Assembly (NCBI GenBank): GCA_963826535.1
Contig: CAWGXL010000011.1
Coordinates: 803,521-867,520, forward strand
Length of the DNA stretch: 64,000 bases
Direction of reading: 5' to 3'
Source of the DNA: an uncultured bacterium
GTDB lineage: Bacteria; Patescibacteriota; Microgenomatia; Levybacterales; UBA12049
The stretch's first letter is position 1. The number at the start of each line of letters is the position of its first letter. The translations under genes and the position numbers were made by a program. The notes below the pieces were generated by a model, which had not been told where the DNA came from, did not search any database, and saw only the letters and a list, made by a program, of their open reading frames with translations. Of this stretch, positions 3,362-59,224 are shown piece after piece.

Positions 3362-3375
3362 GGGAAAATGAACAT

Positions 3376-4441: not shown

Positions 4442-4455
4442 AACGCCTTTTATTT

Positions 4456-4597
4456 TGCCCGGGGTCCTGTCGCTCTCTCGTCCCGTCCGATGTCCTCGGT
4501 CGCAAGCTCCCTGCGGGCACTCGACGGGCCCCTTCCACGCCTGTCAAGCAGGCGAGCTCCTTCGTCCGCTCCCTCCGGTCGCGCCACCCCTCGCGCT
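4456..4597. repeat. GC-rich intergenic element; longer copy of the element inserted in-frame in ychF at 27307-27398
   Basis: About 75 bp (ggggtcctgtcgctc[t/c]ctcgtcccgtccgatgtcctcggtcgca[a/g]gctccctgcgggcactcgacggg) match the ychF insert with 2 mismatches, plus a shared 3' tail ccctccggtcgcgccacccct. GC about 70% in an AT-rich genome; contains internal inverted repeats (gtcccgtc/gacgggac, gcagg/cctgc). ORFs 4438..4644 and 4490..4696 are just its translation. Confidence 0.6.
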
Positions 4598-4752
4598 ATT
4601 TTGAATTTTGTGGCTGGGATTCACCAAGTATTGAATATTGTTGAGTTTTGGTGGATAATATCGGCAAGGCCCTCCACATCTTACTACTCGCCTTAGTTCA
4701 TTTGAACTGCGGCTTGAAGAGCGATTGTTGGCGGGTAAAGGGGGTGGGAATT

Positions 4753-5178: not shown

Positions 5179-5183
5179 TCCGC

Positions 5184-24220: not shown

Positions 24221-24249
24221 CTCTGTTCATTTCTTGGTAAAATCACATC

Positions 24250-24336
24250 TATGAATCTATCTGTGGGAATTGTTGGGTTGCCGAATGTTGGGAAGTCGAC
24301 TTTGTTTAATGCTATTGAAGAAGTAGGCGGGACTTG
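24250..24336 (+). pseudogene. Displaced/decayed copy of the ychF 5' end (first 28 codons, then stop)
   Basis: atgaatctatctgtgggaattgttgggttgccgaatgttgggaagtcgactttgtttaatgc encodes [21 protein letters not shown], identical in protein to the ychF N-terminus at 27117. About 75% nt identity with mostly synonymous changes; has its own TAAAAT -10 box 8 nt upstream. Confidence 0.65.
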
Positions 24337-27035: not shown

Positions 27036-27116
27036 AGTGAAACATTTTTAATTTGTCCTCATTATATCAAAGTTTTTTTATTTCGTTTCTTTTTGTAACT
27101 TGGTATAATCAGATGT

Positions 27117-28346
27117 ATGAATCTTTCTGTTGGGATAGTCGGATTACCAAACGTAGGAAAATCTACTTTGTTTAATGCGCTTTTGAAGAAGCAGCAGGCG
27201 TTGGCGGCGAATTATCCGTTTGCTACTATTGAGCCGAATGTGGGTGTGGTGGCGGTGGCGGATTCGCGGTTGGAGAGGTTGGCGGAGATTGTGGCAGAGG
27301 AGATGCGGGGTCCTGTCGCTCCCTCGTCCCGTCCGATGTCCTCGGTCGCAGGCTCCCTGCGGGCACTCGACGGGACACCCTCCGGTCGCGCCACCCCTTC
27401 TTTACCTCCGATAAAGCCGGCGATGATTTCTTTTGTGGATATTGCGGGGCTTGTGAAGGGGGCTTCGGAGGGGGCGGGGTTGGGGAATAAGTTTTTGTCG
27501 CATATTCGGGAGGTTAGGATTATTGCGCATGTTGTGCGGGCTTTTTCAGACGCGGATGTGGTGCGGGAGGGGAGTGTGGATCCTCAGAATGATTATATAA
27601 CTATAGGGACAGAGTTGATTCTTGCGGATTTGCAGACGGTTGAGAAGCAGCGGAAGAGTAAGGCGGTGAAGACTGATGTGGTGAAGAAGTTGGCGATTGA
27701 GAAATTGTATAAGGCATTAAATCAGGGAAATGCTGCGAGGGAAGTTGTATTGACAGATGAAGAAAAAGAATCAATTAGTGATTTATTTTTGTTATCAGGT
27801 AAGGCGGAAGTTATTGTTCTTAATGTTTCGGAGCAGGATTATACAAAAGATAAAATTCCTGAGATTATAAAAAAATATTCTGAATATTTTCAAGGTGGTA
27901 GTTCGTCGACCTCACCCCAACACTCTCCTAATAGGAGAGGGAGTAATTCTATGATTGTCATATGCGCGAAAATTGAGTCGGAACTTTCGGAGTTGTCGGA
28001 GGAGGAACAGAAGGAATATTTAAAAGGATTGGGTCTCACGCAATCGGGATTGGAGCGATTGATTCAAAAGGCTTATGAAACTTTGGGACTTATATCTTTT
28101 TTGACAGCGGGGGAGAAAGAGGTGAGAGCTTGGACTATAAGAAAAGGTATAAGCGCGCAAATGGCGGCGGGGGAGATTCATACGGATTTTATTAAGAAGT
28201 TTATTAAGGCGGAAGTTGTGGGATATGATGACTTTGTTGAAGTAGGCGGGTGGAAGAAGGCAAGGGAGCAAGGGAGGGCGAGGCAAGAGGGAAGGGATTA
28301 TTTGATGAAGGACGGGGATGTAGTGGAGTTTAAAATAGGAACTTAG
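27117..28346 (+). CDS. ychF: Ribosome-binding ATPase YchF (Obg-like GTPase family) with in-frame insertions
   Basis: G1 [18 protein letters not shown]3 [28 protein letters not shown]-terminal TGS domain. 409 aa versus about 363 typical: extra GC-rich segment 27307-27398 and palindromic segment around 27923-27939. Confidence 0.85.
27307..27398. repeat. GC-rich RPE-like element inserted in-frame within ychF
   Basis: Near-identical to 4461-4535 (2 mismatches over about 75 bp). Encodes [34 protein letters not shown] between conserved YchF segments EEMRG and [11 protein letters not shown]; no stop codons. Confidence 0.6.
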
Positions 28347-28798: not shown

Positions 28799-29077
28799 AT
28801 GAGAAGTTATGATTTGGTAGTTGTTTTGCGGCCGTCATTGGATGATAAACTGAGAAAGAAATTGATTGATGGGTTTAAGACAATACTTAAGGACATGAAG
28901 TTTACCAAAGAGGAAGAGTGGGGACAGAAGCCTCTGGCATATGTTATAAAAAAAGAAGTTGCAGGTTATTATTACCTTTATAAATTTGAGACTGAGAACA
29001 CAATCCCGGCGGGGTTTGAGCAAAAGCTCATGGCGCAGGATAATATATTGAGACACTTATTATTGAGGACAAAATAG
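28799..29077 (+). CDS. rpsF: 30S ribosomal protein S6
   Basis: MRSYDLVVVLRPSLDD... canonical S6 N-terminus; rpsF-ssb-rpsR order. Confidence 0.85.
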   Translation: MRSYDLVVVLRPSLDDKLRKKLIDGFKTILKDMKFTKEEEWGQKPLAYVIKKEVAGYYYLYKFETENTIPAGFEQKLMAQDNILRHLLLRTK

Positions 29078-29196
29078 TTAAAAGTTCAAAGTGCAAAGTT
29101 AAAAGTTAAGGAATATTTTATAAACAGTCTTTCATTAATAATAATTTTGAATTTTTCACTTTTAATTTTGAATTTGAGCGACTGAAAGGAGCGATT

Positions 29197-30235: not shown

Positions 30236-30332
30236 ATATTTGTCCCGCAAGGGGATCAAGAAATTTATTGGAATTTGGTGCTTTGGATTTGAGATTTATA
30301 AGTTGGTTTATTTTTGAATTGTAAATTGAATC

Positions 30333-30890
30333 ATGACTTCCCTGCCTGTTATTCTTTCTTCCGGTGTTGAATCTATTGTCAAAGCAGGTGATATTGTCAA
30401 TGCAGGGCAGATAATCGCTAAGAAAGCAACTCGGACAGATTATATTGTTAATCTTGCTCACGAATTTTCCTCCTCTATAGAAAAAGTACGGAAAACCTTA
30501 CGAAAAAACCCGGGGGATAACGTAAAAGAGGGAGATGTACTGGCTGTCAAAAAGAATTTTTTTAACTTGAGTGAGGAAAAGCTGTTAAGTCGCGTTTCAG
30601 GAACCATTTTAAGATATGAGCGCGATACCGGTAATTTAATCATTTCCCGAATTCCTCAGGGAAATTTTCCGGATATAGTTTCACCTGTTGATGGAACTGT
30701 TAGTATATGCGATAATGATAAAATTGTCATAAGCACTGACAAAGATGTTTATTCAGGGAGAAAGGGTAGCGGAGGTAGTGTGACCGGCGAAGTTTTTATT
30801 CTGGATGGCGCTTTCTCGAAAGACGGGGATTCGGGGGGAGCGCGATATCTTTGTACTATGATTTGGATAGCCGCGCGGTTGAAAAAATAG
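30333..30890 (+). CDS. Hypothetical protein
   Basis: 185 aa ORF; overlaps next ORF (TTG start) in another frame - possibly one frameshifted gene. Confidence 0.3.
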   Translation: MTSLPVILSSGVESIVKAGDIVNAGQIIAKKATRTDYIVNLAHEFSSSIEKVRKTLRKNPGDNVKEGDVLAVKKNFFNLSEEKLLSRVSGTILRYERDTGNLIISRIPQGNFPDIVSPVDGTVSICDNDKIVISTDKDVYSGRKGSGGSVTGEVFILDGAFSKDGDSGGARYLCTMIWIAARLKK

Positions 30891-31123
30891 TTATTGGAAG
30901 AAATTTTCGCCGCGATCTACTAATTAAGTGCATTGGGATGGGAGCGATTGGAATAGTTGGTACCGAGATCAGAGATGAAGATATTGAATATCTAATTCAA
31001 CGTAACATGCGGGTACCCATCATAGAGGTAGACAATAATACAATAGAACAGACAATACAATGGAAAGGCAAGAGATTTTACCTGAACAGCCAAGAAAAAG
31101 TAATAATATTCCTTCACGCTTAA
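30851..31123 (+). CDS. Hypothetical protein (TTG start)
   Basis: 90 aa; GMGAIGIVGTE glycine-rich motif. Confidence 0.25.
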   Translation: MYYDLDSRAVEKIVIGRNFRRDLLIKCIGMGAIGIVGTEIRDEDIEYLIQRNMRVPIIEVDNNTIEQTIQWKGKRFYLNSQEKVIIFLHA

Positions 31124-32376
31124 GAGTGTTTCTTTTGGTTGTTATAGCAGGATTAATCGGGTATTATCTTGGTGTAACAAAGATAGCGATAGACCTCCGA
31201 AATTATCAGCCACATATTGAAGTCACCAGTAAAGCACCACCACCTTCTGCGAGTAATGTTGATTTTGGCCGCGTTTGGGCAGTTATGCAGAAATTGGAGT
31301 CTACCTACTATGATAAAAAAGCAATAGATGGGGAGAGGTTTCTTAATGGTGCGGTAGAGGGGGTAGTAAATAGTTTGGATGATCCATATACTGTGTATTT
31401 GCCGCCTGCGAAAAATAATGATTTCAAACAAGGGTTAGCAGGAAAGTTTGAGGGGATTGGCGCAGAACTTGGCATGAAAGGAAAACAGATTATTGTAGTC
31501 GCTCCGCTTGACGGCAGTCCTGCCCAAAAAGCAGGTTTGCAGCCCGGGGATGCGATTCTTAAAGTAAACGCGGAATTTACAAATGGTTGGACACTAAGCC
31601 AGGCGGTAGATAAGATCAGAGGTGAGAAGGGGACAGAGGTGACTTTAACTATTTTGCATCAGTCAGATGCAAAACCGAAAGAGATTAAATTGACCCGGGA
31701 TACTATAACTATCAAAAGTGTTACCACTTGGGTTAAAAGCGTAAAGGATATTGATGGAATAAAACCACAGGCAGCTGGGCTTAAGAATTTTCAGGATACA
31801 AAAGTTGTATATATTCGATTGTCACAATTTGGGGATAGCACAAATAAGGAATGGCAAAATGTAGCGACACAAGTTGACCGCACTCTTAAGGCAGATAAAG
31901 ATATTAGAGGTGTTATTTTGGACTTGAGGAATAATCCGGGAGGATATCTTACAGATTCTGTTTATATAGCATCTGAATTTATCCGGGACGGGACAGTTGT
32001 CAGTCAAGAAGACCGGAACGGAGATAGAACTTCGTATAAAGTAACAGGCCGCGGATTATTATTAGATGTACCGTTGATAGTTCTTGTTAATAAAGGATCG
32101 GCATCAGCAAGTGAGATTGTAGCAGGTGCTATGCAGGATCATACACGTGCAAAGTTGATCGGAGAGATTACTTTTGGAAAAGGAACTATCCAGCAAGCAG
32201 AGGATCTGGGTGGAGGGGCCGGTCTTCATATCACAATCGCGAAATGGCTCACGCCGGACGGAAACTGGGTACACTTGAAAGGCCTCACGCCGGATATCTT
32301 GGTCGATCCGGATAGTAAAGATCCATCTCATGATATACAGCTTGAGAAAGCAGTTGAGGAATTGGTGAAAGAATAG
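31060..32376 (+). CDS. S41 family C-terminal processing peptidase (CtpA-like) with PDZ domain
   Basis: N-terminal TM anchor; PDZ (GIGAELGMKGKQIIVVAPLDGSPAQKAGLQPGDAILKVN); S41 core (LDLRNNPGG, catalytic SASASE...GKGT). Confidence 0.8.
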   Translation: MERQEILPEQPRKSNNIPSRLRVFLLVVIAGLIGYYLGVTKIAIDLRNYQPHIEVTSKAPPPSASNVDFGRVWAVMQKLESTYYDKKAIDGERFLNGAVEGVVNSLDDPYTVYLPPAKNNDFKQGLAGKFEGIGAELGMKGKQIIVVAPLDGSPAQKAGLQPGDAILKVNAEFTNGWTLSQAVDKIRGEKGTEVTLTILHQSDAKPKEIKLTRDTITIKSVTTWVKSVKDIDGIKPQAAGLKNFQDTKVVYIRLSQFGDSTNKEWQNVATQVDRTLKADKDIRGVILDLRNNPGGYLTDSVYIASEFIRDGTVVSQEDRNGDRTSYKVTGRGLLLDVPLIVLVNKGSASASEIVAGAMQDHTRAKLIGEITFGKGTIQQAEDLGGGAGLHITIAKWLTPDGNWVHLKGLTPDILVDPDSKDPSHDIQLEKAVEELVKE

Positions 32377-32513
32377 TTTAAAGTTCAAAATGCAAAGTTC
32401 AAAATTAAAGTTAATAATTTAAAGTTATCCATCAATTTTGAATTTTAAATTGCAACATTTCATTTTAACTTTGAAGTTTAGATCCCCATTGGGGACACTA
32501 TTAATTTGTTTCT

Positions 32514-33737: not shown

Positions 33738-33761
33738 ATTCCCGCCTTCGCGGGAATGACA
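33738..33761. repeat. 28-bp-family palindromic element, solo copy (ATTCCC-N8-GGGAAT core)
   Basis: attcccgccttcgcgggaatgaca; immediately upstream of the RBS of the 33772 gene. Confidence 0.6.
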
Positions 33762-34588: not shown

Positions 34589-34614
34589 TAATTCCCGCGA
34601 ACGCGGGAATCCAG
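34589..34614. repeat. Palindromic element, left copy flanking GIY-YIG gene
   Basis: taattcccgcgaacgcgggaatccag. Confidence 0.65.
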
Positions 34615-34944: not shown

Positions 34945-34972
34945 CTGGATTCCCCTGTCCAGGGGAATGACA
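34945..34972. repeat. Palindromic element, right copy flanking GIY-YIG gene (inverted relative to left copy)
   Basis: ctggattcccctgtccaggggaatgaca = reverse complement of the 39579 copy. Confidence 0.65.
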
Positions 34973-37836: not shown

Positions 37837-39540
37837 ATGGAAAAAATATTTTTTGAAATAACTGTAGTTATATGTATTGCTGCGGCACTAGCTATTGTAT
37901 TCAGGTTTTTTAAACAGTCTGAGATTCTTGCTTATATATTGACCGGGATTATTCTGGGGCCACTTGCATTTGTCAAACTTGATAGCGGGGAAGTGATGCA
38001 TTCTTTGGGACAAATCGGGATTACTTTACTACTATTCATGTTGGGTTTGGAGCTTCGGGTGAGTGAGATCCGGTCGGTTGGGAAAGTGGCTCTAATAACC
38101 GGGACAGGGCAGATAATTTTTACTACCGGCGTTGGTTTTCTGCTGTGTATTGTTTTGGGCTTTTCGTCTTTGACTTCGTTATATATGGCTATTGCATTGA
38201 CATTTTCAAGTACGATTATTATTGTAAAACTTCTTTCAGATAAGAAAGATCTGAATAGCCTTTATGGGAAAATATCAATTGGAATTTTACTCGTTCAAGA
38301 TTTTGTGGCGATTATGGCTCTTATTTTTCTTTCGGGATTTCAGAATGGCGGTGAGTCCGGCCTGCCTGCCGGCAGGCAGGTCTCTCCCCTCAGTTTCGGA
38401 TTTTTAATACTTAAAACAGTTGTGCTTTTTGGAGTGGTTATTCTTTTAAGTAATACGATTTTGCCAAAACTTATTAATAAAATTGCGAGGTCTTCGGAAA
38501 TACTTTTCTTATTCAGTCTGGCATGGGCTTTTGGCATGTCAGCGCTTGTCAGTTCGCCTCTAATTGGATTTTCTATAGAAATAGGAGGATTCTTGGCCGG
38601 GCTTGCGCTGGCTAATTCAATGGTGAATTTTCATATTGTGGCAAAAGTAAAAGCGCTTAGGGATTTTTTCATCACAATCTTTTTTGTTACTTTGGGTATG
38701 AGTCTGGTTTTTGATGATATATCCAGAATTTGGATCCCTGCAGTTATATTGGCACTTTATGTACTTATTGGAAATCCAATTATCATGACGTGTATTTTGG
38801 GTTTTTTGGGATACAGAAAAAGGACATCGTTTCTAGTCGGATTGACAATTGCGCAAATTTCAGAGTTCAGTATGATCTTGGTTTTTATGGGAAGTAAATT
38901 AAATCATGTAAGTGACGAGATTGTATCTATTATTACATTAGCCGGGACAATTACATTTGTATTTTCACCTTATATGATTATGAACGGTAATTTAATTTAT
39001 AAAAAAATGTCTCCATATTTATCCATTTTTGAACGGAAAAAAACGCAGGAGCAAACTATTGAAACAGAAAATTTTAATAATCATGTTATTATGGTCGGAG
39101 CTAATAGAATGGGGGAAAGTATTCTGGATGCATTTATAAAGAATGGAACGGATGTACTAGTTGTAGATTTTGATCCAGATGTGATCTCGCGCTTATCTAA
39201 GAAAAAAGTCCGTAGTCTTTACGGAGACATTGTGGACATTGAGATTCAGGAAAAAATAAATCTTAACAAAGCCCGGCTTGTTGTTTCAACCGTTCCTGAT
39301 GTTGATGATAATTTAATTCTGCTTGAAAGTCTACGGATCCAGAATAAAAAGGCACTGGTTGTGCTTTGCGCTATGGAGAAGGAAGATGCAACGGTTTTGT
39401 ATAAAGCAGGCGCGGATTATGTTGTATTACCGCATTTGGCGGGCGGGAGGCATTTGGCAAAAATATTGGTTGATAAGAATCATCTTGAGATTATTGAGGA
39501 CTATAAAGCCCGAGACCGTTCGGTTCTTCTAACGGGGTAA
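37837..39540 (+). CDS. Monovalent cation:proton antiporter (CPA2) with C-terminal RCK/TrkA-N domain
   Basis: 12-13 TM helices then Rossmann HVIMVGANRMGESILDAF; contains a perfect GC palindrome in-frame at 38361-38380. Confidence 0.8.
   Translation: MEKIFFEITVVICIAAALAIVFRFFKQSEILAYILTGIILGPLAFVKLDSGEVMHSLGQIGITLLLFMLGLELRVSEIRSVGKVALITGTGQIIFTTGVGFLLCIVLGFSSLTSLYMAIALTFSSTIIIVKLLSDKKDLNSLYGKISIGILLVQDFVAIMALIFLSGFQNGGESGLPAGRQVSPLSFGFLILKTVVLFGVVILLSNTILPKLINKIARSSEILFLFSLAWAFGMSALVSSPLIGFSIEIGGFLAGLALANSMVNFHIVAKVKALRDFFITIFFVTLGMSLVFDDISRIWIPAVILALYVLIGNPIIMTCILGFLGYRKRTSFLVGLTIAQISEFSMILVFMGSKLNHVSDEIVSIITLAGTITFVFSPYMIMNGNLIYKKMSPYLSIFERKKTQEQTIETENFNNHVIMVGANRMGESILDAFIKNGTDVLVVDFDPDVISRLSKKKVRSLYGDIVDIEIQEKINLNKARLVVSTVPDVDDNLILLESLRIQNKKALVVLCAMEKEDATVLYKAGADYVVLPHLAGGRHLAKILVDKNHLEIIEDYKARDRSVLLTG
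38361..38380. repeat. Perfect 20-bp GC palindrome inserted in-frame in the antiporter gene
   Basis: cctgcctgccggcaggcagg (encodes ...LPAGRQ...) within a locally GC-rich about 45-bp patch in an AT-rich gene; related gcctgccggcaggc at 58019-58032. Confidence 0.6.
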
Positions 39541-39578: not shown

Positions 39579-39606
39579 TGTCATTCCCCTGGACAGGGGA
39601 ATCCAG
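39579..39606. repeat. Palindromic element, left copy of an empty pair
   Basis: tgtcattcccctggacaggggaatccag. Confidence 0.65.
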
Positions 39607-39661: not shown

Positions 39662-39689
39662 CTGGGTTCCCGCGTTCGCGGGAATGACA
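39662..39689. repeat. Palindromic element, right copy of an empty pair
   Basis: ctgggttcccgcgttcgcgggaatgaca; reverse complement of the 34589 copy type; 55-bp AT-rich spacer between the two. Confidence 0.65.
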
Positions 39690-45900: not shown

Positions 45901-46074
45901 CGGTCAGACGCTTTATAAATCTTTAATTGTTCTGTTATTTTAGCATAAAAGAATATTTTGTCAAATTTTGTAGGCTATTTTATCAGCTTTCGTAGAGGTT
46001 GTGAAGTGCTTTTGTTACTGGATACGTTTATTTGCTATTTGTTTAAAACCGATAGAAAATCAGCAATTTTAGTT

Positions 46075-46911
46075 TTATTTAGCTTGTATATATTCTTTTT
46101 GGGCAACTTGATTAAGTATTAGTCTAAAATCGCTAAATACTTCAAGTCCATTCTCCTTCCCAAATGATCCACTAGGGCCTCTAGCAACACCTAGTACTTT
46201 TCCTTCATTATCTACCAAAGGCCCACCGCTATTGCCTGGTAAAACTCTTCCATTATAGTAAAGATGTAGGTCTTTTGTCTCAGTTACCCCTTGCCTTTTC
46301 ATCAAAGCTTGCATATAAGGAGTGTGGTTGGGAGGCTCTTTAGTAGAAACTTTGCCTATACTTATTAAAGGTCTTTGAGAGTCAGCCCAAGCTTCTTTAA
46401 ATTCACCGGGAAACCTAATGGCTGCAGCATTTTGAGTTGTATCATGGCGCACATTCTGTTCGGATATCTCAACTCCTTCATTATCGCCTTCAAATGGAAA
46501 TATAGCTGCATCAGTTGCATGCATGCCATTAGATTTAGCGGTGATGCTATCATAAAGCAAATCAGGATTTTTCATCACCCCTTCTATCATTTCTCCTTTA
46601 TTATCTCTGTAGTGATACTTCAGTGATTTTTCAGGATGAGCTAACATTTCGTCTATTACATGTGTTGCTGTTACTAAATATTTATTCCCCTCATAGGAAA
46701 TGATTACTCCACTGCCACCAGGTTCTGAAGGGTTTTCACTTACAAGTACGGTTGCATTAACAGCTTGTTGTAATTCTGGAATAACACCTTGTTCAGATTT
46801 AAAATAATGAGTCCTATCTTGAAATGTAGGATTTTGGAATGTTGCTGTGTCTAATGAATCCCTAACTTCAGTAGCTGGTCTATACCCAGTTTCTATAAAA
46901 CCTGCATCCAT
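46075..46911 (-). CDS. Trypsin-like (S1 family) serine peptidase, no signal peptide
   Basis: His in YLVTATHVI, Asp in ATDAAIFPF, Ser in GNSGGPLVDNEGKVLGVA. Confidence 0.7.
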   Translation of the reverse strand: MDAGFIETGYRPATEVRDSLDTATFQNPTFQDRTHYFKSEQGVIPELQQAVNATVLVSENPSEPGGSGVIISYEGNKYLVTATHVIDEMLAHPEKSLKYHYRDNKGEMIEGVMKNPDLLYDSITAKSNGMHATDAAIFPFEGDNEGVEISEQNVRHDTTQNAAAIRFPGEFKEAWADSQRPLISIGKVSTKEPPNHTPYMQALMKRQGVTETKDLHLYYNGRVLPGNSGGPLVDNEGKVLGVARGPSGSFGKENGLEVFSDFRLILNQVAQKEYIQAK

Positions 46912-47076
46912 ATTTATTATTAGTATATCAAAAATGTGGCAAAGAAGAATGCTATTGTTTAGCTTTAATTTCGGATTGAGGGAGTTATTAGATTTCTATA
47001 AGTTGTTTTGGGGATTTTTTGTTAGCTATTGAGATGCATGGGTAAATAAGGAAGATTTTATTATTTTGATATGTAT

Positions 47077-47883
47077 TTATTCTTTTTGGGCAACTTGTTT
47101 AAGTATCTGTCTAAAATCGCTAAATATATTATTCTCACCAAATCCACTAGGGCCTTCAGCAACACCTAGTACTTTTCCTTCATTATCTACCAAAGGCCCA
47201 CCACTATTGCCTCGTGTAATTTTTCCATTATAGTAAAAATATAGATCTTCTATCTCATTTACCGTTTGTATTTCCAAAGCATGCATGTAAGTATTGTATA
47301 TAAGAGGCTTGTTAGGAAAGGCATTTCCTATACTAATTAAGGGTCTTTGAGATTCAACCCAAGCATGTTTAAATGCACCAGGAAATCCTATGGCTGCAGT
47401 ATTTTGGGTTACATTATGTAGCAAACTCTTTTCAGATATTTCAACTCCTTCATTGCCGCCTTCAAATGGAAATATAGCTGCATCAGTAGATCGCAGACCT
47501 TTAGATATAGCTGTAATGCTATCATAAAGCAAATCAGGATTTTTCATCACCCCTTCTTTTATCTCTCCTTTACTATCTCTGTAGTGATATTTAAGTGACG
47601 TTTCAGGATGAGCTAACATTTCACCAATCACATGTGTTGCTGTTACTAAATATTTATTCCCCTCATAGGAAATGATTACTCCACTGCCACCAGGTTCTGA
47701 AGGGTTTTCACTTACAAGTACGGTTGCATTAACAGCTTGTTGTAATTCTGGAATAACACCTTGTTCAGATTTAAAATAGATAATTCTATCTAAAGGTGTA
47801 GGATTTTGGAATGTTGCTGTGTCTAATGATCTCCTTACCTCAGAAGTTTGTCTATATAGAGCTTCTACAGCATTTGAAACCAT
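47077..47883 (-). CDS. Trypsin-like (S1 family) serine peptidase, tandem paralogue
   Basis: Same triad motifs. About 150 bp (47640-47790) are 100% identical to 46661-46810 of the neighbour, with identical upstream catatttattattagt; C-terminal halves diverge. Confidence 0.7.
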   Translation of the reverse strand: MVSNAVEALYRQTSEVRRSLDTATFQNPTPLDRIIYFKSEQGVIPELQQAVNATVLVSENPSEPGGSGVIISYEGNKYLVTATHVIGEMLAHPETSLKYHYRDSKGEIKEGVMKNPDLLYDSITAISKGLRSTDAAIFPFEGGNEGVEISEKSLLHNVTQNTAAIGFPGAFKHAWVESQRPLISIGNAFPNKPLIYNTYMHALEIQTVNEIEDLYFYYNGKITRGNSGGPLVDNEGKVLGVAEGPSGFGENNIFSDFRQILKQVAQKE

Positions 47884-47990
47884 ATTTATTATTAGTGTAG
47901 CAAAAAAGTTTTGTAAATCAAGCTCATTTATTAAGATTGGCATTAACTAAGGAGAGGGTGGTTTGTATGAAATTTTGAGTGAGGGGAATA

Positions 47991-49109
47991 TTAAATTTCT
48001 ATAAGGTTTTTGGGGGATTTGGTTAGTTGGATAAGTTTATTGTTTTGGATTGTAAAGAGGTCTTCGGTGCGGACGCCGAATTTATCAGGCAGGTAAATTC
48101 CCGGCTCTATTGAGAAGACCATTCCATTTTGGAGTTTATCTTTTGATTTTGGTGAGAGTCTGGGGGCTTCGTGGACTTCAAGGCCAATCCCGTGTCCGAG
48201 TCCGTGGGGGTAGGCAGGATAACCCTTGGAAACTATATAAAATCTTGCAGCATTATCTAAATCTAGTGTTTTTATTACTCTAGATTGTTTTATTGTTTCA
48301 TTGTTATATTGTTCAATTGCTTTTTGTTGGGAGGCGAGGACGGTTTCATAGATACGTTTTTTTTCAGGTGAAACTTTTCCGAAATGTATTGTCCGCGTCA
48401 TGTCGGAGCAGTAATTTTCGTATTTTACGCCAAAGTCTAGAAGTATAAATTCGTTGTTTTTTAATTTGCGGGTTCCTGTTTTGTGGTGGGGAATGGCGGC
48501 GTTTTCTTCGAATGCAAGGATTGTCGCGAATGAAATGTCGGAACCTTGTTTTCTTATGAAATGTTCGAGCTCAAAAGCAATATCTTTTTCTGCCATTCCG
48601 ACTTTTATAAAGGACAGGATATGAGTGAAAGCCTTATCGCCAATCTGACATGCTTTTTTAATTTTTTTTATTTCTTTTTGAACTTTGATTATTCTGAGTG
48701 ACGATAGGTCGATGTGATTAATTTTTTTAATTAATTTTTTATTATTATTTAGGCGAGATAAAATTTTTTCATGCTCGTATACAGTGAGGTTATGTGCGTC
48801 AATTCCGAGGGACTTAATATTTTCTTGCTTTAAAATTTTTTCTAATTCTAATATTTTTTCATGACTTGTTGTTTCAGAACCTACTAAAAGTTTGAAGTCT
48901 TTAACATGTTTTTTTACAGCGTGCACGTACCTTCCATCGGTAATTATATAATTGTTATTTTTTGTAATAAGCAGAAAAGCTTCTCTTTCCATGTTTGAGA
49001 AATAAGAGAAATCTGTTAGATAGATAATATCTGGGACAGAGGAGATGAGGGCCGCGTCTAAAGACTTAGTAGAAAGTAATTTTTTAAATTTTGATAGACG
49101 AGTGTTCAT
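47991..49109 (-). CDS. M24 family Xaa-Pro aminopeptidase / prolidase
   Basis: HGLGHGIGLEVHEAPRL and other metal ligands (D...D...H...E...E pattern) of the creatinase/prolidase fold. Confidence 0.8.
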   Translation of the reverse strand: MNTRLSKFKKLLSTKSLDAALISSVPDIIYLTDFSYFSNMEREAFLLITKNNNYIITDGRYVHAVKKHVKDFKLLVGSETTSHEKILELEKILKQENIKSLGIDAHNLTVYEHEKILSRLNNNKKLIKKINHIDLSSLRIIKVQKEIKKIKKACQIGDKAFTHILSFIKVGMAEKDIAFELEHFIRKQGSDISFATILAFEENAAIPHHKTGTRKLKNNEFILLDFGVKYENYCSDMTRTIHFGKVSPEKKRIYETVLASQQKAIEQYNNETIKQSRVIKTLDLDNAARFYIVSKGYPAYPHGLGHGIGLEVHEAPRLSPKSKDKLQNGMVFSIEPGIYLPDKFGVRTEDLFTIQNNKLIQLTKSPKNLIEI

Positions 49110-55891: not shown

Positions 55892-57217
55892 ATGATAGCG
55901 ATATTCAAAAAGTATTTATATTTTCCGGTTGCTTGGTATTTCCGGTTCTTTGCTGGTATTAGGTTGCGCCGTTGGTCTCCGCGGATTGTGGTTGTAACGG
56001 GTTCCAATGGAAAGACAACGCTGCTTCATTTGCTCGAGGCGCAATTTGGAAGTAAGGCTAAGTATTCACATCATGCCAATAGCAGCTTTGGGATTCCCTT
56101 TGATATTCTTGGTCTGCGAAGGACTAAATTATTTAAGTCGGAATGGATAGGATTATTTTTTCGGGCGCCATTTAGAGCTTTTTTATCTCCTTTTCAAGAA
56201 AAAATATATATAGTTGAAGCTGATGTTGACAGACCGGGAGAAGGGAAATTTCTTGCTTCATTTTTAAAACCTGAAGTTGTATTGTGGATTAGTTTGGGGA
56301 GGACACATGGCATGAATTTTGAAAAACTCGTAAGACAGAAAAAATTTCAAACTGTTGAGGAAGCTATTGCTTTTGAATTTGGATTTTTTTTGGAATATTG
56401 TCAAAAACTTGCGTTAATTAATGGAGATTCACCATTGATAGTTAAGCAAACTAAAAGATTAAGAGTTGATGCAAAAATAATTAAAAAAAATGAACGTTTT
56501 GTAAAATATGAAGTGGATCTGGCCGGAACAAATTTTCAAATTGATGGAAGTAGATATATATTTGAGGGATTACTACCGGAAGAGATATTTTATTCGATTG
56601 TTATGTGCAAAAGCGTACTGGAGTATTTTGATCTACCGTTTGATCAATCATTTTCAAAATTAGTATTACCACCTGGAAGAAGTTCGATTTTTCAAGGAAT
56701 TCGTGGGGTTACAATTGTGGATAGTAGTTATAACGCAAATCTCTCATCAATGAATACAATTTTGCTTATGTATGATAAATTTCTCGCAACTCATAAATGG
56801 GGAGTGCTTGGAGATATGTTGGAACAAGGAGAAGGTGAGCAGAAAGAACATGAGAGATTGGCTGAATTGATTGGGCTTTATGATTTTGAGAGAATTATTT
56901 TGATGGGGCCGAGGGTGAGTAAGTATACATATCCGGTATTAATTCAAAAGTCAAAAGTCAAAAGTCAAAATCACAACTCAAAAGTAAAAAGTGATAACGA
57001 CAAGAGGGAAGATCTAGTTATAGAGAAGTTTTTGGGGCCGAGGGAGACGTTGGATTATTTATTGGCGAATTTGCGAGGAGGGGAGACGATACTTTTTAAG
57101 GGTGCGAGATTTATGGAGGGAATTATTGAGAATTTATTGTTGGATAAAAAAGATAAAGTGAAGTTGTCCCGACGGGAAGAGGTTTGGGAGAAAAGGAGGA
57201 AGGGATGGGGATTATGA
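55892..57217 (+). CDS. Mur ligase family protein (MurF-like)
   Basis: P-loop VVTGSNGKTTLLHLLEAQFG; contains in-frame heptamer-repeat insert SKVKSQNHNSKVKSD (56946-56995). Confidence 0.65.
   Translation: MIAIFKKYLYFPVAWYFRFFAGIRLRRWSPRIVVVTGSNGKTTLLHLLEAQFGSKAKYSHHANSSFGIPFDILGLRRTKLFKSEWIGLFFRAPFRAFLSPFQEKIYIVEADVDRPGEGKFLASFLKPEVVLWISLGRTHGMNFEKLVRQKKFQTVEEAIAFEFGFFLEYCQKLALINGDSPLIVKQTKRLRVDAKIIKKNERFVKYEVDLAGTNFQIDGSRYIFEGLLPEEIFYSIVMCKSVLEYFDLPFDQSFSKLVLPPGRSSIFQGIRGVTIVDSSYNANLSSMNTILLMYDKFLATHKWGVLGDMLEQGEGEQKEHERLAELIGLYDFERIILMGPRVSKYTYPVLIQKSKVKSQNHNSKVKSDNDKREDLVIEKFLGPRETLDYLLANLRGGETILFKGARFMEGIIENLLLDKKDKVKLSRREEVWEKRRKGWGL
56946..56995. repeat. Heptamer tandem repeat (AAAAGTC x3 + degenerate units) inside Mur ligase gene
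   Basis: aaaagtcaaaagtcaaaagtcaaaatcacaactcaaaagtaaaaagtg. Confidence 0.6.
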
Positions 57218-57954
57218 TTAGTTCAAAGTTCAAAGTTCAAAGTTCAAAGTTAAAAAATGAAAAAATTTATATTTTGCATGGGTGGGCGTATACTACTGAT
57301 AAGTGGCAGCCGTTGATTGAAAAACTTAGGAAAGAGGGAATTGAGGCTGTAATGCTTAAGATACCCGGGCTTACTGCACCACTCAATGAGGTTTGGAATC
57401 TCGATAATTATGTTGGCTGGTTGAAGGAAATATTGGATAAAGAAAACGATAGGGTGATTTTACTTGGGCACTCAAATGGCGGACGTATAGCTCTTACTTT
57501 TACTGCTAAATATCCTGAAAAAGTAAAACAATTAATTCTTATCGACAGCGCCGGAATTTATCATAACGAACTACCTATACAGATAAAGCGGTTTGTATTT
57601 GGGAATATCGCTAGGGTAGGACGCAAATTTACTAATTCTCAAACTTTGCGAAAATTACTCTATAAATTGACAAGAGAAAGTGATTATGAGAGAGCTAATC
57701 CATTGCTTCGAAAGACTATGCAGAATTTAGTTCGTACAGATATATCGGATTTATTTCCGCATATTCACTTACCTGTAACGATTATTTGGGGTGAGCTGGA
57801 TGAAATGACATCACTCTCTGATGGGAAAATTATGCATCAGAGCTTAAAGAATTCGACATTTCATGTTATTCGTGGGGCAAGACATTCACCCATGTTTACC
57901 CATGTAGAAGAGGTGGGGGAGATAATAATAAAAGTATTAAGTATTAAGTATTAA
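57184..57954 (+). CDS. Alpha/beta hydrolase fold protein
   Basis: YILHGW...LLGHSNGG (nucleophile elbow GHSxG)...GARHSP; N-terminus has heptamer repeat SSKFKVQSSKLK; C-terminal 7 aa and stop are encoded by the GTATTAA repeat. Confidence 0.65.
   Translation: MGEKEEGMGIMISSKFKVQSSKLKNEKIYILHGWAYTTDKWQPLIEKLRKEGIEAVMLKIPGLTAPLNEVWNLDNYVGWLKEILDKENDRVILLGHSNGGRIALTFTAKYPEKVKQLILIDSAGIYHNELPIQIKRFVFGNIARVGRKFTNSQTLRKLLYKLTRESDYERANPLLRKTMQNLVRTDISDLFPHIHLPVTIIWGELDEMTSLSDGKIMHQSLKNSTFHVIRGARHSPMFTHVEEVGEIIIKVLSIKY
57220..57251. repeat. Heptamer tandem repeat (AGTTCAA x4) at 5' end of hydrolase gene
   Basis: agttcaaagttcaaagttcaaagttcaaagtt. Confidence 0.65.
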
Positions 57955-57974
57955 GTATTAAGTATTAAGTATTA
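57934..57974. repeat. Heptamer tandem repeat (GTATTAA x5.9) spanning stop codon of hydrolase gene and abutting DegT start
   Basis: gtattaagtattaagtattaagtattaagtattaagtatta followed directly by ATG of next gene. Confidence 0.8.
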
Positions 57975-59224
57975 TGGCGATTTTTAATTCATTGGGATCA
58001 AATTATAGTTTTGGCCTTGCCTGCCGGCAGGCGGGTTTTGCAATACTGAGTTTATTCGCGAATGACAGTAAGAAGTGTGGTTTAAAACTCAGTAAATTTT
58101 TGGAGGAAAAATATGGCGGGCAGGTTTTATTGACATATAAAGGGCGAGAAGCCCTTCGACTGGCTTTTAGGGCAATTAATCAGAAGGGTGCCGAGGTTGG
58201 TATTTGTGGATTTACTTGTTATGCGGTATACGAAGCGGTTACTTTGGAGGGTTACAAGGTACGGTATTTGGATATAGCAGAGGGAGATTTGAATTTTTCT
58301 TTTGCTAATCTCGTGCAAGGCATTAAAAAATATCCATTAATAAAAGTGATTATAATTCAGAATACTCTTGGTTATCCTTGCGAGATAGAGAAGATTGCGA
58401 AATATTGTAAAGAAAAAGGGATTATTTTAATTGAGGATTTGGCGCATTCGATTGGAGCAAAATATGAAGATGGAAGGGAAGTAGGAACTGTTGGTGATTT
58501 TACGGTGTTGTCTTTTAGTCAGGACAAGATGGTTGATGGAATTTCAGGGGGAGCGGTAATAGTTAAAAGTTCAAAGTTCAAAATTCCCCACAAGAGGACT
58601 ACCTTCTTCGAAGGGTCGCAAAGTTTGGAACTTGGAGAATTACCTATGAGTCAACAGACAAGGGATAGATTTTATCCGTTATTTACTTGGATTATTAGAA
58701 AGACTTATGAATTTGGATTGGGGAAATTGTTGCATGCTTTTCTAAAAAAATTTAATTTGCTTTCCCAGCCGATGAGCAATTTGGATAAAGACATAATTTA
58801 TGGATTGCCGGATTGGTATTGCTGTTTAATTTATAGGCAATTTAGAAGCATGGAAGGTGATTTGAATCATCGAAGAAAGATAGCATCAGTGTACGCGGAT
58901 AGACTCAAAAAGGATGTTTTGTCTAGTATACTAGTCAGAAAAATACCTAAGGCGGCGAATTTGCGTTTTCCGATTTTTGTTGCGAATAGGAGTAATCTTG
59001 TTGAATTTTTGAAGAAGAAATATATTTTCGTATCAGATATTTGGTATGATGCACCGATTGCGCCGAAAAAATATTTACATATGACAGATTATAAAAATCA
59101 GTGTCCAAATGCGGAAAAAATTTCTAAAGAGATATTAAATCTGCCGACACATAGGAATGTGAGCGAGATGGACGCGAAATTTATTGCTGAAAAAGTGAAT
59201 GAATGGGTGGAAGGAAAAACTTGA
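57974..59224 (+). CDS. DegT/DnrJ/EryC1/StrS-family PLP-dependent aminotransferase (divergent)
   Basis: IILIEDLAHSIGAKYEDGREVGTVGDFTVLSFSQDKMV (PLP-Lys region); contains GC palindrome gcctgccggcaggc (58019-58032) and AAAGTTC repeat (about 58560-58582) in-frame. Confidence 0.6.
   Translation: MAIFNSLGSNYSFGLACRQAGFAILSLFANDSKKCGLKLSKFLEEKYGGQVLLTYKGREALRLAFRAINQKGAEVGICGFTCYAVYEAVTLEGYKVRYLDIAEGDLNFSFANLVQGIKKYPLIKVIIIQNTLGYPCEIEKIAKYCKEKGIILIEDLAHSIGAKYEDGREVGTVGDFTVLSFSQDKMVDGISGGAVIVKSSKFKIPHKRTTFFEGSQSLELGELPMSQQTRDRFYPLFTWIIRKTYEFGLGKLLHAFLKKFNLLSQPMSNLDKDIIYGLPDWYCCLIYRQFRSMEGDLNHRRKIASVYADRLKKDVLSSILVRKIPKAANLRFPIFVANRSNLVEFLKKKYIFVSDIWYDAPIAPKKYLHMTDYKNQCPNAEKISKEILNLPTHRNVSEMDAKFIAEKVNEWVEGKT

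What the first reader, a model, noticed from the sequence alone, without database searches (positions are those of the whole stretch)
38361..38380. Perfect GC palindromes inserted in-frame in unrelated genes (antiporter, DegT aminotransferase, ychF)
cctgcctgccggcaggcagg (a 20-bp perfect palindrome) sits inside the CPA2 antiporter gene between two TM segments. The related gcctgccggcaggc sits near the 5' end of the DegT-like gene (58019-58032). ctctcctaataggagag sits in ychF (27923-27939). All preserve the reading frame and form local GC islands. Together with the 92-bp element this points to several families of small palindromic elements colonising coding sequence in this genome.
Basis: seen in the sequence. 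Interest (0 to 1): 0.55.

Follow-up and report, generated by a model that had tools for sequence, protein, structure and literature searches.

The report
Tiny cosmopolitan palindrome inserted inside genes
A 20-base perfect palindrome that sits as a clean 7-codon insert in two unrelated genes of this ultra-small (CPR/Microgenomates) bacterium belongs to a repeat family found letter-for-letter in many distantly related bacteria and phage contigs; the insert is real and looks selfish or neutral, and how it spreads is unknown.

Summary
CCTGCCTGCCGGCAGGCAGG ("P20") at 38361-38380 and its variant at 58016-58035 are each exactly 21-nt (7-aa) in-frame inserts. Both are absent from all 119 closest homologues of the CPA2 antiporter and of the DegT-like gene. 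They are read in different frames, so the similarity is in the DNA, not the protein. The antiporter insert lies in a disordered inter-helix loop.

P20 is not specific to this genome. The same 20-mer occurs in at least 119 stretches of species-representative genomes (many CPR classes, Omnitrophota, Bacteroidota isolates, Planctomycetota and others). It also occurs at 42 sites in IMG/VR, against 0, 0 and 1 for control palindromes. Flanks are unrelated. There are no target-site duplications and no linked gene. Elsewhere it is a 7-aa insert in S6, MetH and ValRS, and it also sits in tRNA loops.

The ychF hairpin is not a perfect palindrome. It is an in-frame copy of the known BoxC/PIT/"TM" intrastrand-triplex repeat. 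CPR YchF proteins have two insertion hotspots filled by several such repeat families.

Verdict: real, REP/RPE-like selfish micro-inserts kept where they are 3n long and fall in loops. P20 itself appears undescribed, and its mechanism of spread is unknown.

The parts
38361..38380 (.). P20: perfect 20-bp palindrome CCTGCCTGCCGGCAGGCAGG
   Evidence: Read directly; found in the hairpin scan; 0 of 100 shuffles give any match with up to 3 mismatches. The mRNA hairpin has a free energy of -22.5 kcal/mol, z -3.2.
38359..38379 (+). 21-nt (7-aa, GLPAGRQ) insert relative to orthologues. The boundary is ambiguous by 1 nt and can equally be read as G+P20 at 38360-38380.
   Evidence: Codon alignment with the syntenic relative L001. 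Absent from 119 homologues. A 7-residue gap appears against KefC 8bxg.
37837..39540 (+). Host gene: CPA2 cation:proton antiporter (Na_H_Exchanger + TrkA_N)
   Evidence: In the AF2 model the insert falls in loop 172-183 between helices 142-171 and 184-206, with pLDDT below 50 for residues 170-181.
58016..58035 (.). Degenerate P20 copy CTTGCCTGCCGGCAGGCGGG (2 mismatches to P20), containing the perfect 14-bp palindrome 58019-58032
58013..58033 (+). 21-nt (7-aa, GLACRQA) insert in the conserved N-terminal segment of the DegT-like protein. The boundary is ambiguous by 2 nt and can be read as CCTTGCCTGCCGGCAGGCGGG, i.e. P20 plus 1 nt.
   Evidence: Alignment of 120 homologues: only the window protein has these 7 residues.
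57974..59224 (+). Host gene: DegT/DnrJ/EryC1-family aminotransferase
27910..27943 (-). BoxC/PIT/TM-type repeat (the family I called 'E2'). On the - strand it reads CTCCCTCTCC-TATTA-GGAGAGTG-TT-GGGGTGAGG.
   Evidence: family identified through PMC4666352.
27891..27932 (+). 42-nt (14-aa) insert at YchF hotspot 2, as placed by alignment with L001. The real boundaries are uncertain, because the repeat extends to 27943.
   Evidence: Gaps of 13-16 residues against PDB YchF structures. Hotspot statistics.
27117..28346 (+). Host gene ychF (409 aa, against a modal 367 aa in the clade)
27305..27398 (+). The '92-bp' GC-rich element, in-frame at YchF hotspot 1.
4459..4598 (+). Intergenic copy of the 92-bp element. 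It carries a nested 42-nt GC-rich insert (4529-4570) that contains the hairpin GCCTG-TCAAG-CAGGC (4539-4553).

Best explanation
The two palindromes are copies of a specific, cosmopolitan 20-nt palindromic repeat (P20). It was inserted, with one extra base (21 nt), into the DNA of two unrelated genes after this lineage split from its nearest sampled relatives.

The copies survive because of three properties. The insert is a multiple of three. The sequence has no stop codon in any frame; being a palindrome, both strands read alike. And it landed in segments that tolerate extra residues: an inter-helix loop of the antiporter, and an N-terminal segment of the DegT-like protein that lies ahead of its Pfam and PDB-aligned domain. 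The insert is translated as 7 meaningless residues and does nothing for the protein, so it is selfish or neutral DNA of the REP/RPE kind.

The ychF hairpin is the same phenomenon with a different, already known repeat (BoxC/PIT/TM).

Shown: family membership, insertion polarity, insert size, frame independence, loop location, cosmopolitan distribution, and the absence of target-site duplications (TSDs), shared flanks and linked genes.

Inferred: the mode of spread. My preferred guess (about 0.3) is copy-and-paste without a dedicated linked transposase. One route is template switching to another copy during replication or repair, with the nascent palindrome snapping back into a hairpin and so setting the insert boundaries. 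Another is a trans-acting enzyme that handles single-stranded hairpins. Seeding between phyla would be by horizontal transfer, including phages.
For: Insertion polarity and size:
- 21 nt absent from 119/119 homologues in each gene and from syntenic L001.
- The two copies are read in different frames.
- The antiporter insert lies in a loop with pLDDT below 50 and faces a 7-residue gap in KefC.

A specific sequence family:
- 42 sites in IMG/VR, against 0, 0 and 1 for the inside-out version and two composition-matched palindromes.
- With the stems fixed and the 4 central bases left free, CCGG accounts for 42 of 56 sites, and the rest are mostly single-base variants.

The palindrome alone is the unit:
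- Flanks are unrelated between genomes.
- No TSD in 94 of 166 sites, and only 5 sites have one of 5 nt or more.
- No recurrent neighbouring gene and no split arms flanking a larger element.

The same 7-aa insert occurs in other conserved proteins: S6, MetH and ValRS. An exact P20 sits in another lineage's YchF. P20 also occurs in tRNA variable, D and T loops.

Selection filter: sites are 2.3-fold depleted deep inside long ORFs (23/84 against 63% of random positions).

Parallel colonisation of YchF hotspots by several repeat families: 38/120 and 30/120 homologues.

Genuine biology: present in cultured isolates (Salinimicrobium soli, Hyunsoonleella aquatilis, Salegentibacter, Spongiimicrobium) and in long contigs.
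Against: - No filled/empty polymorphism was observed. The one site tested in metagenomes (ValRS of L056) was filled in all 3 contigs, so recent mobility is not shown.
- No enzyme, intermediate or target rule was identified.
- Only 2 copies were seen in 64 kb, and the rest of the 894-kb source genome could not be read.
- The GTDB scan pattern required GGCC on one side. This biases the left flank and the GLPAGRQ frame of those examples.
- 27% of sites lie inside long ORFs, which is a mild depletion for a purely random insertion process.
- The excess of 21-nt (P20+1) variants in ORFs is not significant (7/16 against 13/58, p = 0.11).
- Letter-perfect identity across phyla is hard to explain by neutrality alone. 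It could mean constraint, and therefore function.
Confidence: 0.7

Rival explanations
1. P20 is a functional cis-element kept by selection where it sits. It could act as an RNA hairpin (pausing, mRNA stability or a processing site) or as a dyad-symmetric DNA site for a widespread dimeric protein. The protein insert would then be a by-product.
For: The sequence, including the CCGG centre, is strongly conserved across phyla. The mRNA hairpin is very stable (-22.5 kcal/mol, z -3.2). For the separate 92-bp element, synonymous sites are far more conserved than in the host gene (84% against 42%), which shows that DNA- or RNA-level constraint or recent transfer exists for such inserts.
Against: The insert is not conserved at orthologous positions in any of 119 homologues of either gene. 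It occurs in unrelated places: protein loops, tRNA loops and intergenic DNA, with no positional rule. No gene is associated with it. The DegT copy has decayed (2 mismatches; fold z -1.47).
Confidence: 0.12
2. Each palindrome arose locally and independently, through slippage of the TGCC/GGCA tetranucleotide plus template-switch 'perfection' of a quasi-palindrome. No copying from another locus would be involved.
For: P20 is (CCTG)2CC|GG(CAGG)2, a tetranucleotide-repeat palindrome. Nested or expanded forms exist, e.g. (CCTG)4CCGG... in L047.
Against: Orthologues have no seed sequence at the site (GAG CCG ATT in L001). The identical 20-mer recurs in more than 150 unrelated contexts, whereas the inside-out arrangement of the same repeats is absent from IMG/VR (0 against 42). 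The length is nearly constant, with a mode of 20.
Confidence: 0.05
3. The 7 residues are a horizontally spread peptide module with a function in the protein, for example a recognition or cleavage motif.
For: The GLPAGRQ peptide recurs in many proteins.
Against: That recurrence is largely forced by the scan pattern. The two window copies encode different peptides, GLPAGRQ and GLACRQA. The same DNA occurs in tRNA genes and non-coding DNA. In the model the insert is disordered.
Confidence: 0.03
4. The palindrome is an assembly or library artefact, such as a palindromic linker or a chimeric junction.
For: Most carriers are metagenome-assembled genomes.
Against: These are clean insertions between adjacent codons with the flanks intact. 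The insert is 21 nt in the antiporter, DegT, S6 and MetH, with a summed 7-aa gap in ValRS. It is present in cultured isolates and in long contigs. The same filled allele appears in 3 independent metagenome contigs. Composition-matched palindromes are not found.
Confidence: 0.02

Closest known systems
REP / REPIN elements (repetitive extragenic palindromes mobilised by RAYT tyrosine transposases), including intragenic REPs (Di Nocera et al. 2013, PMC3733652)
   Same: A short (20-40 nt) GC-rich palindrome repeated in the genome. It carries no coding capacity of its own. REPs are occasionally found in-frame inside genes, where they add a few residues.
   Different: P20 has no GTAG or CGTC tag and no conserved flank. 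It is a perfect rather than an imperfect palindrome. It is single rather than dimeric. The identical sequence occurs across many phyla, whereas REP families are species- or genus-specific. Both window copies are intragenic. No RAYT was seen near any copy.
Rickettsia palindromic elements (RPE; 'selfish DNA in protein-coding genes'). Recalled from the literature and mentioned in PMC3733652.
   Same: Palindromic repeats inserted in-frame into unrelated, often essential genes. They are translated as extra surface segments, and the same element is also found intergenically.
   Different: From memory, RPEs are about 100-150 bp and confined to Rickettsia. P20 is 20-21 nt and cosmopolitan. Of the elements here, the window's 92-bp element is the closer analogue in size.
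BoxC / PIT / 'TM' G/C-rich intrastrand-triplex motif (Holder et al. 2015, PMC4666352)
   Same: The ychF element matches the three-block architecture CCCTCTCC - GGAGAGGG - GGGTGAGG. That family is highly conserved, is present in more than 260 genomes, has no associated mobility genes and has no known function. This is the same 'cosmopolitan small structured repeat' behaviour now seen for P20.
   Different: BoxC/TM was characterised in intergenic DNA: its distances to neighbouring ORFs and the rearrangement of intergenic regions were analysed. Here it is in-frame inside ychF, in a CPR bacterium. P20 is a plain palindrome, not a triplex motif.
Mitochondrial GC clusters, Neurospora 'PstI palindromes' and the translational-bypass 'byp' elements of yeasts. 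Recalled from the literature; yeast GC-cluster papers are listed.
   Same: Small GC-rich palindromic units scattered in an AT-rich genome. They are suspected to be mobile, have no transposase, and are sometimes inside coding sequence. The Neurospora unit is about 18 nt, close to P20 in size.
   Different: Those are organellar and lineage-specific. Byps are not translated and need not be 3n, whereas the inserts here are 3n and open in frame.
MITEs (miniature inverted-repeat transposable elements)
   Same: Non-autonomous, made of inverted repeats, and able to sit in genes.
   Different: P20 has no target-site duplication. At 20 nt it is far below MITE size. No parent IS with matching ends was found.

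Membership tests
REP/REPIN (RAYT-associated) | Short (about 20-40 nt) palindromic unit | tested here: met
   A 20-nt perfect palindrome.
REP/REPIN (RAYT-associated) | Conserved GTAG (or CGTC) tetranucleotide tag at one end (PMC3733652) | tested here: not met
   Flanks are unrelated. Among the 42 IMG/VR sites listed, only the two L142 copies are immediately preceded by GTAG. The window copies are flanked by TCCGG/TCTC and TTTGG/GGGTT.
REP/REPIN (RAYT-associated) | High copy number per genome, mainly extragenic, often in inverted pairs | tested here: inconclusive
   There are 2 copies in 64 kb, both intragenic and single. The rest of the 894-kb genome was not readable. In other low-GC loci 27% of sites lie deep inside long ORFs.
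REP/REPIN (RAYT-associated) | Cognate RAYT (Y1 HUH transposase) gene in the genome | not testable with these tools
   Only the window is available. No recurrent gene family lies within 3 kb of P20 in about 150 loci.
MITE | Target-site duplication flanking terminal inverted repeats | tested here: not met
   94 of 166 sites have no flanking direct repeat, 67 have 1-2 nt, and only 5 have 5 nt or more. The net insert is 21 nt, that is 20 + 1.
MITE | Derivation from an autonomous IS with the same ends | tested here: not met
   No arm pairs enclose a transposase-sized segment, and there are no shared flanks. The search covered only about 1.2 Mb of fetched loci.
Rickettsia palindromic elements | In-frame insertion in unrelated ORFs, with the same element also outside genes | tested here: met
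   genes; intergenic or tRNA.
Rickettsia palindromic elements | Element length of about 100-150 bp and restriction to Rickettsia (from memory) | tested here: not met
   P20 is 20-21 nt and occurs in many phyla.
BoxC/PIT/TM intrastrand-triplex motif (for the ychF element only) | Three consecutive blocks, CCCTCTCC(C) / (G)GGAGAGGG / GGGTGAGGG, separated by short loops | tested here: met
   The - strand of 27910-27943 reads CCCTCTCC-TATTA-GGAGAGTG-TT-GGGGTGAGG. It has 1 mismatch to the 19-nt core. It matches the consensus of 132 IMG/VR copies and Table 1 of PMC4666352.
BoxC/PIT/TM intrastrand-triplex motif (for the ychF element only) | Formation of a stable intrastrand triplex by the single strand | not testable with these tools
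   This needs CD or NMR, as in PMC4666352. The second block is degenerate here (GGAGAGTG).
BoxC/PIT/TM intrastrand-triplex motif (for the ychF element only) | Intergenic location (as characterised in E. coli) | tested here: not met
   The element is in-frame inside ychF. E. coli K-12 copies, e.g. in the alx-sstT spacer, are intergenic.

The most novel reading that the evidence does not exclude
P20 is a self-propagating 20-nt palindrome and the smallest mobile DNA unit described. It moves within genomes and between bacterial phyla, with phages among the carriers. It inserts without target duplication, through a hairpin- or cruciform-dependent mechanism that needs no linked transposase. Together with BoxC/TM and other cosmopolitan hairpin repeats it forms a 'micro-mobilome' that continually adds short loops to conserved proteins and tRNAs, especially in CPR bacteria.
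Probability: 0.3. Interest if true: 0.85.

Novelty: new variant of a known kind. Interest (0 to 1): 0.62.

Why it matters
If P20 is what it appears to be, three things follow.

1. Essential, conserved proteins (ValRS, AlaRS, MetH, S6, YchF, transporters) and tRNAs in many phyla carry identical 7-codon or 20-nt inserts of non-protein origin. This affects alignment, phylogeny, gene calling and structure prediction for CPR and other uncultured lineages. It also explains many odd low-complexity 'GLPAGRQ / PHPDPLLRGEG / IASSSTPRND' segments.

2. A letter-perfect 20-mer shared across phyla, without target duplications, flanks or a linked enzyme, points to an insertion or transfer mechanism that is not yet described. 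The long-standing puzzle of how BoxC/PIT-type repeats spread becomes testable with a second, simpler family that also occurs in cultured Flavobacteriaceae.

3. The recurrent hotspots in YchF provide a natural map of where proteins tolerate insertions.

Tried and rejected
- Target-site duplications. Flanking direct repeats of 7 nt or more are enriched (21 observed, against about 3 expected), but they rarely abut the element (5 of 166). They look like local low-complexity DNA, so I rejected them as TSDs.
- A parent element. I searched for separated P20 arms enclosing 0.2-4 kb, ran all-against-all BLAST of ±400-nt flanks, and clustered neighbouring ORFs. Nothing recurrent was found.
- A target motif. 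There is only a weak purine-before / pyrimidine-after preference. G^TT junctions appear in a few coding cases but are not general.
- An empty allele. The single metagenome scan, with anchors either side of the ValRS site of L056, gave 3 contigs, all filled and identical. The exact-match look-up for the window antiporter found no record, so no strain-level relatives could be retrieved.
- E. coli and GenBank phages hold no exact P20, only 91% matches in 7 genomes.
- Whether the 21-nt asymmetric variants are a coding-specific subfamily. There is a trend only (p = 0.11). In IMG/VR there are 7 such variants against 42 perfect copies, with no dominant extra base.
- The tRNA-origin idea. It was raised by P20 followed by T-arm sequence in L118 and L058. 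I rejected it because those are tRNA(-fragment) genes into which P20 is inserted.
- Integron attC-like, Xer/dif-like and adapter or linker identities. I considered these from memory and dropped them for lack of any matching feature.
- Literature. There are no hits for the 12-mer or the encoded peptides, and none linking palindromic elements with CPR.
- The 92-bp element is not in IMG/VR as an exact 23-mer.
Full report
THE OBSERVATION

The window is 38.3% GC. At 38361-38380 it reads CCTGCCTGCCGGCAGGCAGG, a perfect 20-bp palindrome that I call P20. This lies inside ORF 37837..39540 (+), a CPA2 antiporter with Na_H_Exchanger and TrkA_N domains. At 58019-58032 it reads GCCTGCCGGCAGGC, inside the DegT-like ORF 57974..59224. 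The wider stretch 58016-58035 matches P20 with 2 mismatches. At 27923-27939 in ychF (27117..28346) it reads CTCTCCT-AAT-AGGAGAG. This is an interrupted inverted repeat, not a perfect palindrome, and its arms are only 57% GC.

Chance does not explain the first two. The 12-mer CCTGCCGGCAGG occurs twice exactly. No match to P20 with up to 3 mismatches appears in any of 100 dinucleotide-preserving shuffles.

ARE THEY INSERTS?

Antiporter. In an alignment of the window protein with its 119 best homologues (58-77% identity; Microgenomates/Levybacteria-like CPR bacteria), the window protein alone has 7 extra residues in the loop FQNGGE|GLPAGRQ|VSxLS. A syntenic relative covering ychF through the antiporter (L001, GCA_041643235.1) lets the DNA be compared codon by codon. 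The extra sequence is exactly 21 nt, GGCCTGCCTGCCGGCAGGCAG (38359-38379). This is P20 plus one G, with a 1-nt ambiguity in placement. E. coli KefC (8bxg) also shows a 7-residue gap there. An AlphaFold2 model built on 40 homologues puts the insert in the non-helical stretch 172-183, between helices 142-171 and 184-206. This is the least confident part of the membrane domain, with pLDDT below 50 for residues 170-181.

DegT-like gene. Among 120 proteins (the window protein and 119 homologues), only the window protein has GLACRQA, between the conserved NSLGSNYxF and GFxxxxL. The insert is again 21 nt (58013-58033). With its 2-nt ambiguity it can be read as CCTTGCCTGCCGGCAGGCGGG, which is P20 with one extra T and one A-to-G change.

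The two copies are translated in different frames (GCC GGC AGG against TGC CGG CAG). The similarity is therefore in the DNA, not the protein.

ychF. Relative to L001, the window gene has a 42-nt insert at 27891-27932 plus the separate '92-bp' element. Relative to solved YchF structures, both positions are gaps.

P20 IS NOT A FEATURE OF THIS GENOME ALONE

GTDB representatives. The carriers include:
- many CPR classes (Davies-, Levy-, Curtiss-, Shapiro-, Roizman-, Gottesman-, Ames-, Yanofsky-, Nealson-, Zambryski-, Staskawicz- and Falkowbacteria, WWE3, Saccharibacteria, Peregrini- and Peribacteria);
- Omnitrophota, Bacteroidota, Planctomycetota, Nitrospirota, Elusimicrobia, Margulisbacteria and low-GC Gammaproteobacteria MAGs;
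- cultured isolates: Salinimicrobium soli KCTC 32163, Hyunsoonleella aquatilis SJ7, Salegentibacter sp. R32 and Spongiimicrobium sp..

54 of the 119 loci are 45% GC or less. The motif nearly always extends to the full palindrome, most often 20 nt and next most often 22 nt.

IMG/VR. The exact 20-mer occurs at 42 sites in 35 stretches. Controls gave far fewer: the inside-out arrangement GGCAGGCAGGCCTGCCTGCC gave 0, and two palindromes with the same arm composition gave 0 and 1. With the 8-nt stems fixed and the four central bases left free, CCGG accounts for 42 of 56 sites, and most of the rest are single-base variants of it. This is therefore one specific sequence family. It is not a class of hairpins that selection favours for stability alone.

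Absences. P20 is absent from 5,426 complete E. coli genomes and from GenBank phages, apart from imperfect matches.

ANATOMY OF THE FAMILY

- Flanks differ completely between genomes. All-against-all BLAST of ±400-nt flanks finds only related viral contigs and other small repeats.
- There is no target-site duplication: 94 of 166 sites have none, 67 have 1-2 nt, and 5 have 5 nt or more.
- No pair of separated arms encloses a larger element. No gene family recurs within 3 kb.
- In the unbiased IMG/VR set the base before P20 is a purine in 34 of 42 sites, and the base after is a pyrimidine in 31 of 42. Nothing stronger was found.
- P20 often abuts or nests in other small hairpin repeats.

P20 IN OTHER GENES AND IN tRNAs

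In loci of 50% GC or less, 23 of 84 sites lie deep inside ORFs of 200 aa or more, against 63% of random positions in the same loci. This is a 2.3-fold depletion, but a quarter of copies are still intragenic.

I could check three further proteins by alignment. In S6 of a Daviesbacterium the insert is 7 aa. In MetH of a Bacteroidales MAG it is a 7-residue gap against E. coli MetH. In ValRS of a Levybacterium the gaps of 3 and 4 residues against T. thermophilus ValRS sum to 7. An exact P20 also sits in YchF of a forest-soil CPR bacterium (P0309). There the net gain over the modal loop length is 5 aa, and the loop itself is variable.

P20 also occurs inside tRNA genes:
- the variable loop of a viral tRNA-Met that still scores 50 bits with the Rfam tRNA model;
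- the D-loop of a viral tRNA-like sequence, which I read by eye as tRNA-Lys and which neither the Rfam scan nor ARAGORN called;
- between the T-stem and T-loop of three tandem tRNA-Leu 3' fragments in S. soli.

P20 has no stop codon in any frame, by inspection. This is unremarkable for an 80% GC sequence, but it is a precondition for surviving inside genes.

THE ychF HAIRPIN IS A DIFFERENT AND KNOWN REPEAT

The stretch 27910-27943 matches, with 1 mismatch in the 19-nt core, a motif that I first called E2: CCTCACCCCAAC-CCTCTCC-loop-GGAGAGGGAG. It occurs in 4,752 of 5,426 E. coli genomes, for example twice in the K-12 alx-sstT spacer.

A sequence search of the literature identified it as the BoxC / PIT / 'TM' G/C-rich intrastrand-triplex motif of Holder et al. 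2015 (PMC4666352). That paper lists 23 copies in MG1655, including the alx-sstT pair. It reports the motif in more than 260 genomes, stable triplex formation in vitro, association with rearranged loci, and no nearby mobility genes. It offers horizontal transfer only as a hypothesis. Its characterisation concerned intergenic regions. Here the repeat is in-frame within ychF.

YchF SHOWS THE GENERAL PHENOMENON

Among the window protein and its 119 best YchF homologues, the modal length is 367 aa. 38 of the 120 carry 5 or more extra residues at hotspot 1 (after EIxxEE). 30 of the 120 do so at hotspot 2 (before VVICAKIE).

The extra residues are recognisable translations of a small set of repeats:
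- BoxC/TM, as PHPDPLL(K/R)GEG, in P0243 and P0332;
- P20, as LPAGRQ, in P0309;
- the 92-bp element in P0299;
- several others, such as IASSSSTPRND and SGQARMT.

The same repeat appears in different frames in different lineages.

For the 92-bp element shared by the window and P0299 (whose YchF proteins are 64% identical), the element is 87.5% identical in DNA, against 65.7% for the rest of the gene. At third codon positions the figures are 84% against 42%. The element is therefore either younger than the host-gene divergence or constrained at the DNA level. Other homologues of the antiporter and DegT families also carry lineage-specific inserts from further hairpin families.

HOW IT MOST LIKELY WORKS

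What is shown: P20 copies are insertions of a defined repeat unit. They are kept in genes only when in frame and where extra residues are tolerated (an inter-helix loop in the one case modelled). The unit carries nothing but itself.

What is inferred: the inserts are selfish or neutral and are translated as 7 residues without function. The mRNA gains a strong local hairpin (-22.5 kcal/mol, z -3.2, for the antiporter copy), and the decayed DegT copy has lost most of that.

The mode of spread is not shown. The absence of target duplications, of a target motif, of a parent element and of a linked gene argues against classical IS or MITE transposition. The absence of a GTAG or CGTC tag argues against RAYT-type REP mobilisation as currently defined.

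My preferred guess is templated copy-and-paste. One version is a switch of the nascent strand to another copy during replication or repair, with the new palindrome folding back and so setting the boundaries. Another is a trans-acting enzyme that handles single-stranded hairpins. Occasional transfer between phyla would follow, and phage contigs do carry copies. The 1-2-nt junction ambiguities (G or GG) are compatible with microhomology, but they are too short to count as evidence.

I did not observe any filled/empty polymorphism. The only site tested was filled in all three metagenome contigs.

RIVALS

- A selected cis-element remains possible, because identity across phyla is striking. However, nothing is conserved at orthologous sites, and the positions follow no rule.
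- Local de novo origin is contradicted by the lack of seeds in orthologues and by the absence of the inside-out palindrome.
- A functional peptide is contradicted by frame independence and by the tRNA and intergenic copies.
- An artefact is contradicted by the clean 21-nt in-frame inserts, the cultured isolates, and the independent contigs.

COMPARISON WITH WHAT IS KNOWN, AND NOVELTY

In-frame colonisation of genes by palindromic repeats is known: Rickettsia RPEs, and intragenic REPs in several species (PMC3733652). A cosmopolitan, highly conserved small structured repeat without mobility genes has one precedent, BoxC/PIT/TM (PMC4666352).

P20 fails the tested defining features of REP (no tag), MITE (no TSD, wrong size, no parent element) and RPE (wrong size and host range). 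In behaviour it resembles mitochondrial GC clusters and the Neurospora PstI palindromes; that comparison rests on memory.

I found no paper containing the P20 sequence or its peptides, and none describing such inserts in CPR bacteria. The library excludes much subscription literature, so this is absence of evidence only. I rate the finding as a new variant of a known kind. For the ychF element, it is a known repeat in a new, intragenic setting.

LIMITS

- Only 64 kb of an 894-kb genome was readable.
- The GTDB scan was truncated, and its pattern forced GGCC on one side. This biases the left flank and the GLPAGRQ frame.
- Coding status in other loci was judged from open frames, not from annotation.
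- Insert length was verified against homologues in the antiporter, DegT, S6 and MetH (7 aa each) and in ValRS (gaps summing to 7). One YchF case showed a different net gain.

Noticed in passing
window 27305-27398 and 4459-4598; L297 501-1703: The '92-bp' GC-rich element is in-frame in ychF and also intergenic. The intergenic copy carries a nested 42-nt GC insert (4529-4570). The same element sits at the same YchF position in a protein only 64% identical. There the element is 87.5% identical in DNA against 65.7% for the rest of the gene, and 84% against 42% at third codon positions. An exact 23-mer from it is absent from IMG/VR.
   Followed up: partly
YchF homologues P0241-P0360 (window ychF 27117-28346): CPR YchF has two insertion hotspots. 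38/120 and 30/120 homologues carry 5 or more extra residues there. These residues are translations of a small recurring set of hairpin repeats (BoxC/TM, P20, the 92-bp element, 'IASSSSTPRND' types), sometimes in different frames.
   Followed up: partly
window 24222-24312 vs 27088-27178: A 91-nt stretch that is 77% identical to the ychF promoter and first ~20 codons lies 2.9 kb upstream. The DNA between the two copies holds a small overlapping gene pair that looks like a toxin-antitoxin pair by sequence (not searched against any family library) and two further ORFs. It looks like an island inserted at the ychF 5' end.
   Followed up: no
window 30330-31120: A gene that is a single 284-aa ORF in the relative L001 is split into two overlapping frames here. 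The cause is a 4-nt gap beside a G6 run (~30826-30840). This is either a pseudogene or a homopolymer sequencing error.
   Followed up: partly
window 33738-33757, 34591-34610, 34949-34968, 39583-39602, 39667-39684: Another hairpin family, (GTC)ATTCCCGCGAACGCGGGAAT(GACA) and a CCCCTG variant. Two copies lie between the convergent antiporter and release-factor genes. Related 'GTCATTCCCGCGAA' sequences flank P20 in other genomes (L030, L040).
   Followed up: no
L146 2239-2330; L153 ~490-560; L118 4740-5300: P20 occurs inside tRNA genes. One is the variable loop of a viral tRNA-Met that still scores 50 bits with Rfam. One is the D-loop of a viral tRNA-like sequence (read by eye as tRNA-Lys; neither the Rfam scan nor ARAGORN called it), on a contig that also has a group I intron about 0.65 kb away. 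In Salinimicrobium soli, three tandem 181-nt units are each a tRNA-Leu 3' fragment with P20 between the T-stem and T-loop.
   Followed up: partly
L116 (Bacteroidales MAG) MetH ORF 1888-5707 (-): The same MetH carries the 7-aa P20-type insert and a second insert of about 44 aa from another hairpin family (VIAREERPKQSH...CFATLAMT). Both are absent from E. coli MetH.
   Followed up: partly
window 57937-57973: A (GTATTAA)5 microsatellite spans the end of the upstream hydrolase-like ORF and the spacer just before the DegT start codon.
   Followed up: no
window 29073-29100, 32372-32399, 57217-57258, 58558-58585: An AT-rich repeat, AATAGTTAAAAGTTCAAAGTTCAAA, occurs four times, and two copies lie inside ORFs. 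The DegT copy sits next to a window-specific 10-aa insert, PHKRTTFFEG. AT-rich repeats may therefore also enter coding sequence here.
   Followed up: no
window 46028-48020: Tandem units of about 975-1000 nt at 72-86% identity, indicating adjacent paralogous genes.
   Followed up: no
L280 230-1945 (P0098); L281 168-1388 (P0183): A more distant antiporter homologue carries an independent insert, from another GC-rich repeat, in the same inter-helix loop as the window (…SAGSASSLQAGSGQ…). A DegT homologue carries a 'RAGRQARMT'-type insert elsewhere in the protein. Lineage-specific repeat-derived inserts therefore recur in both gene families.
   Followed up: partly
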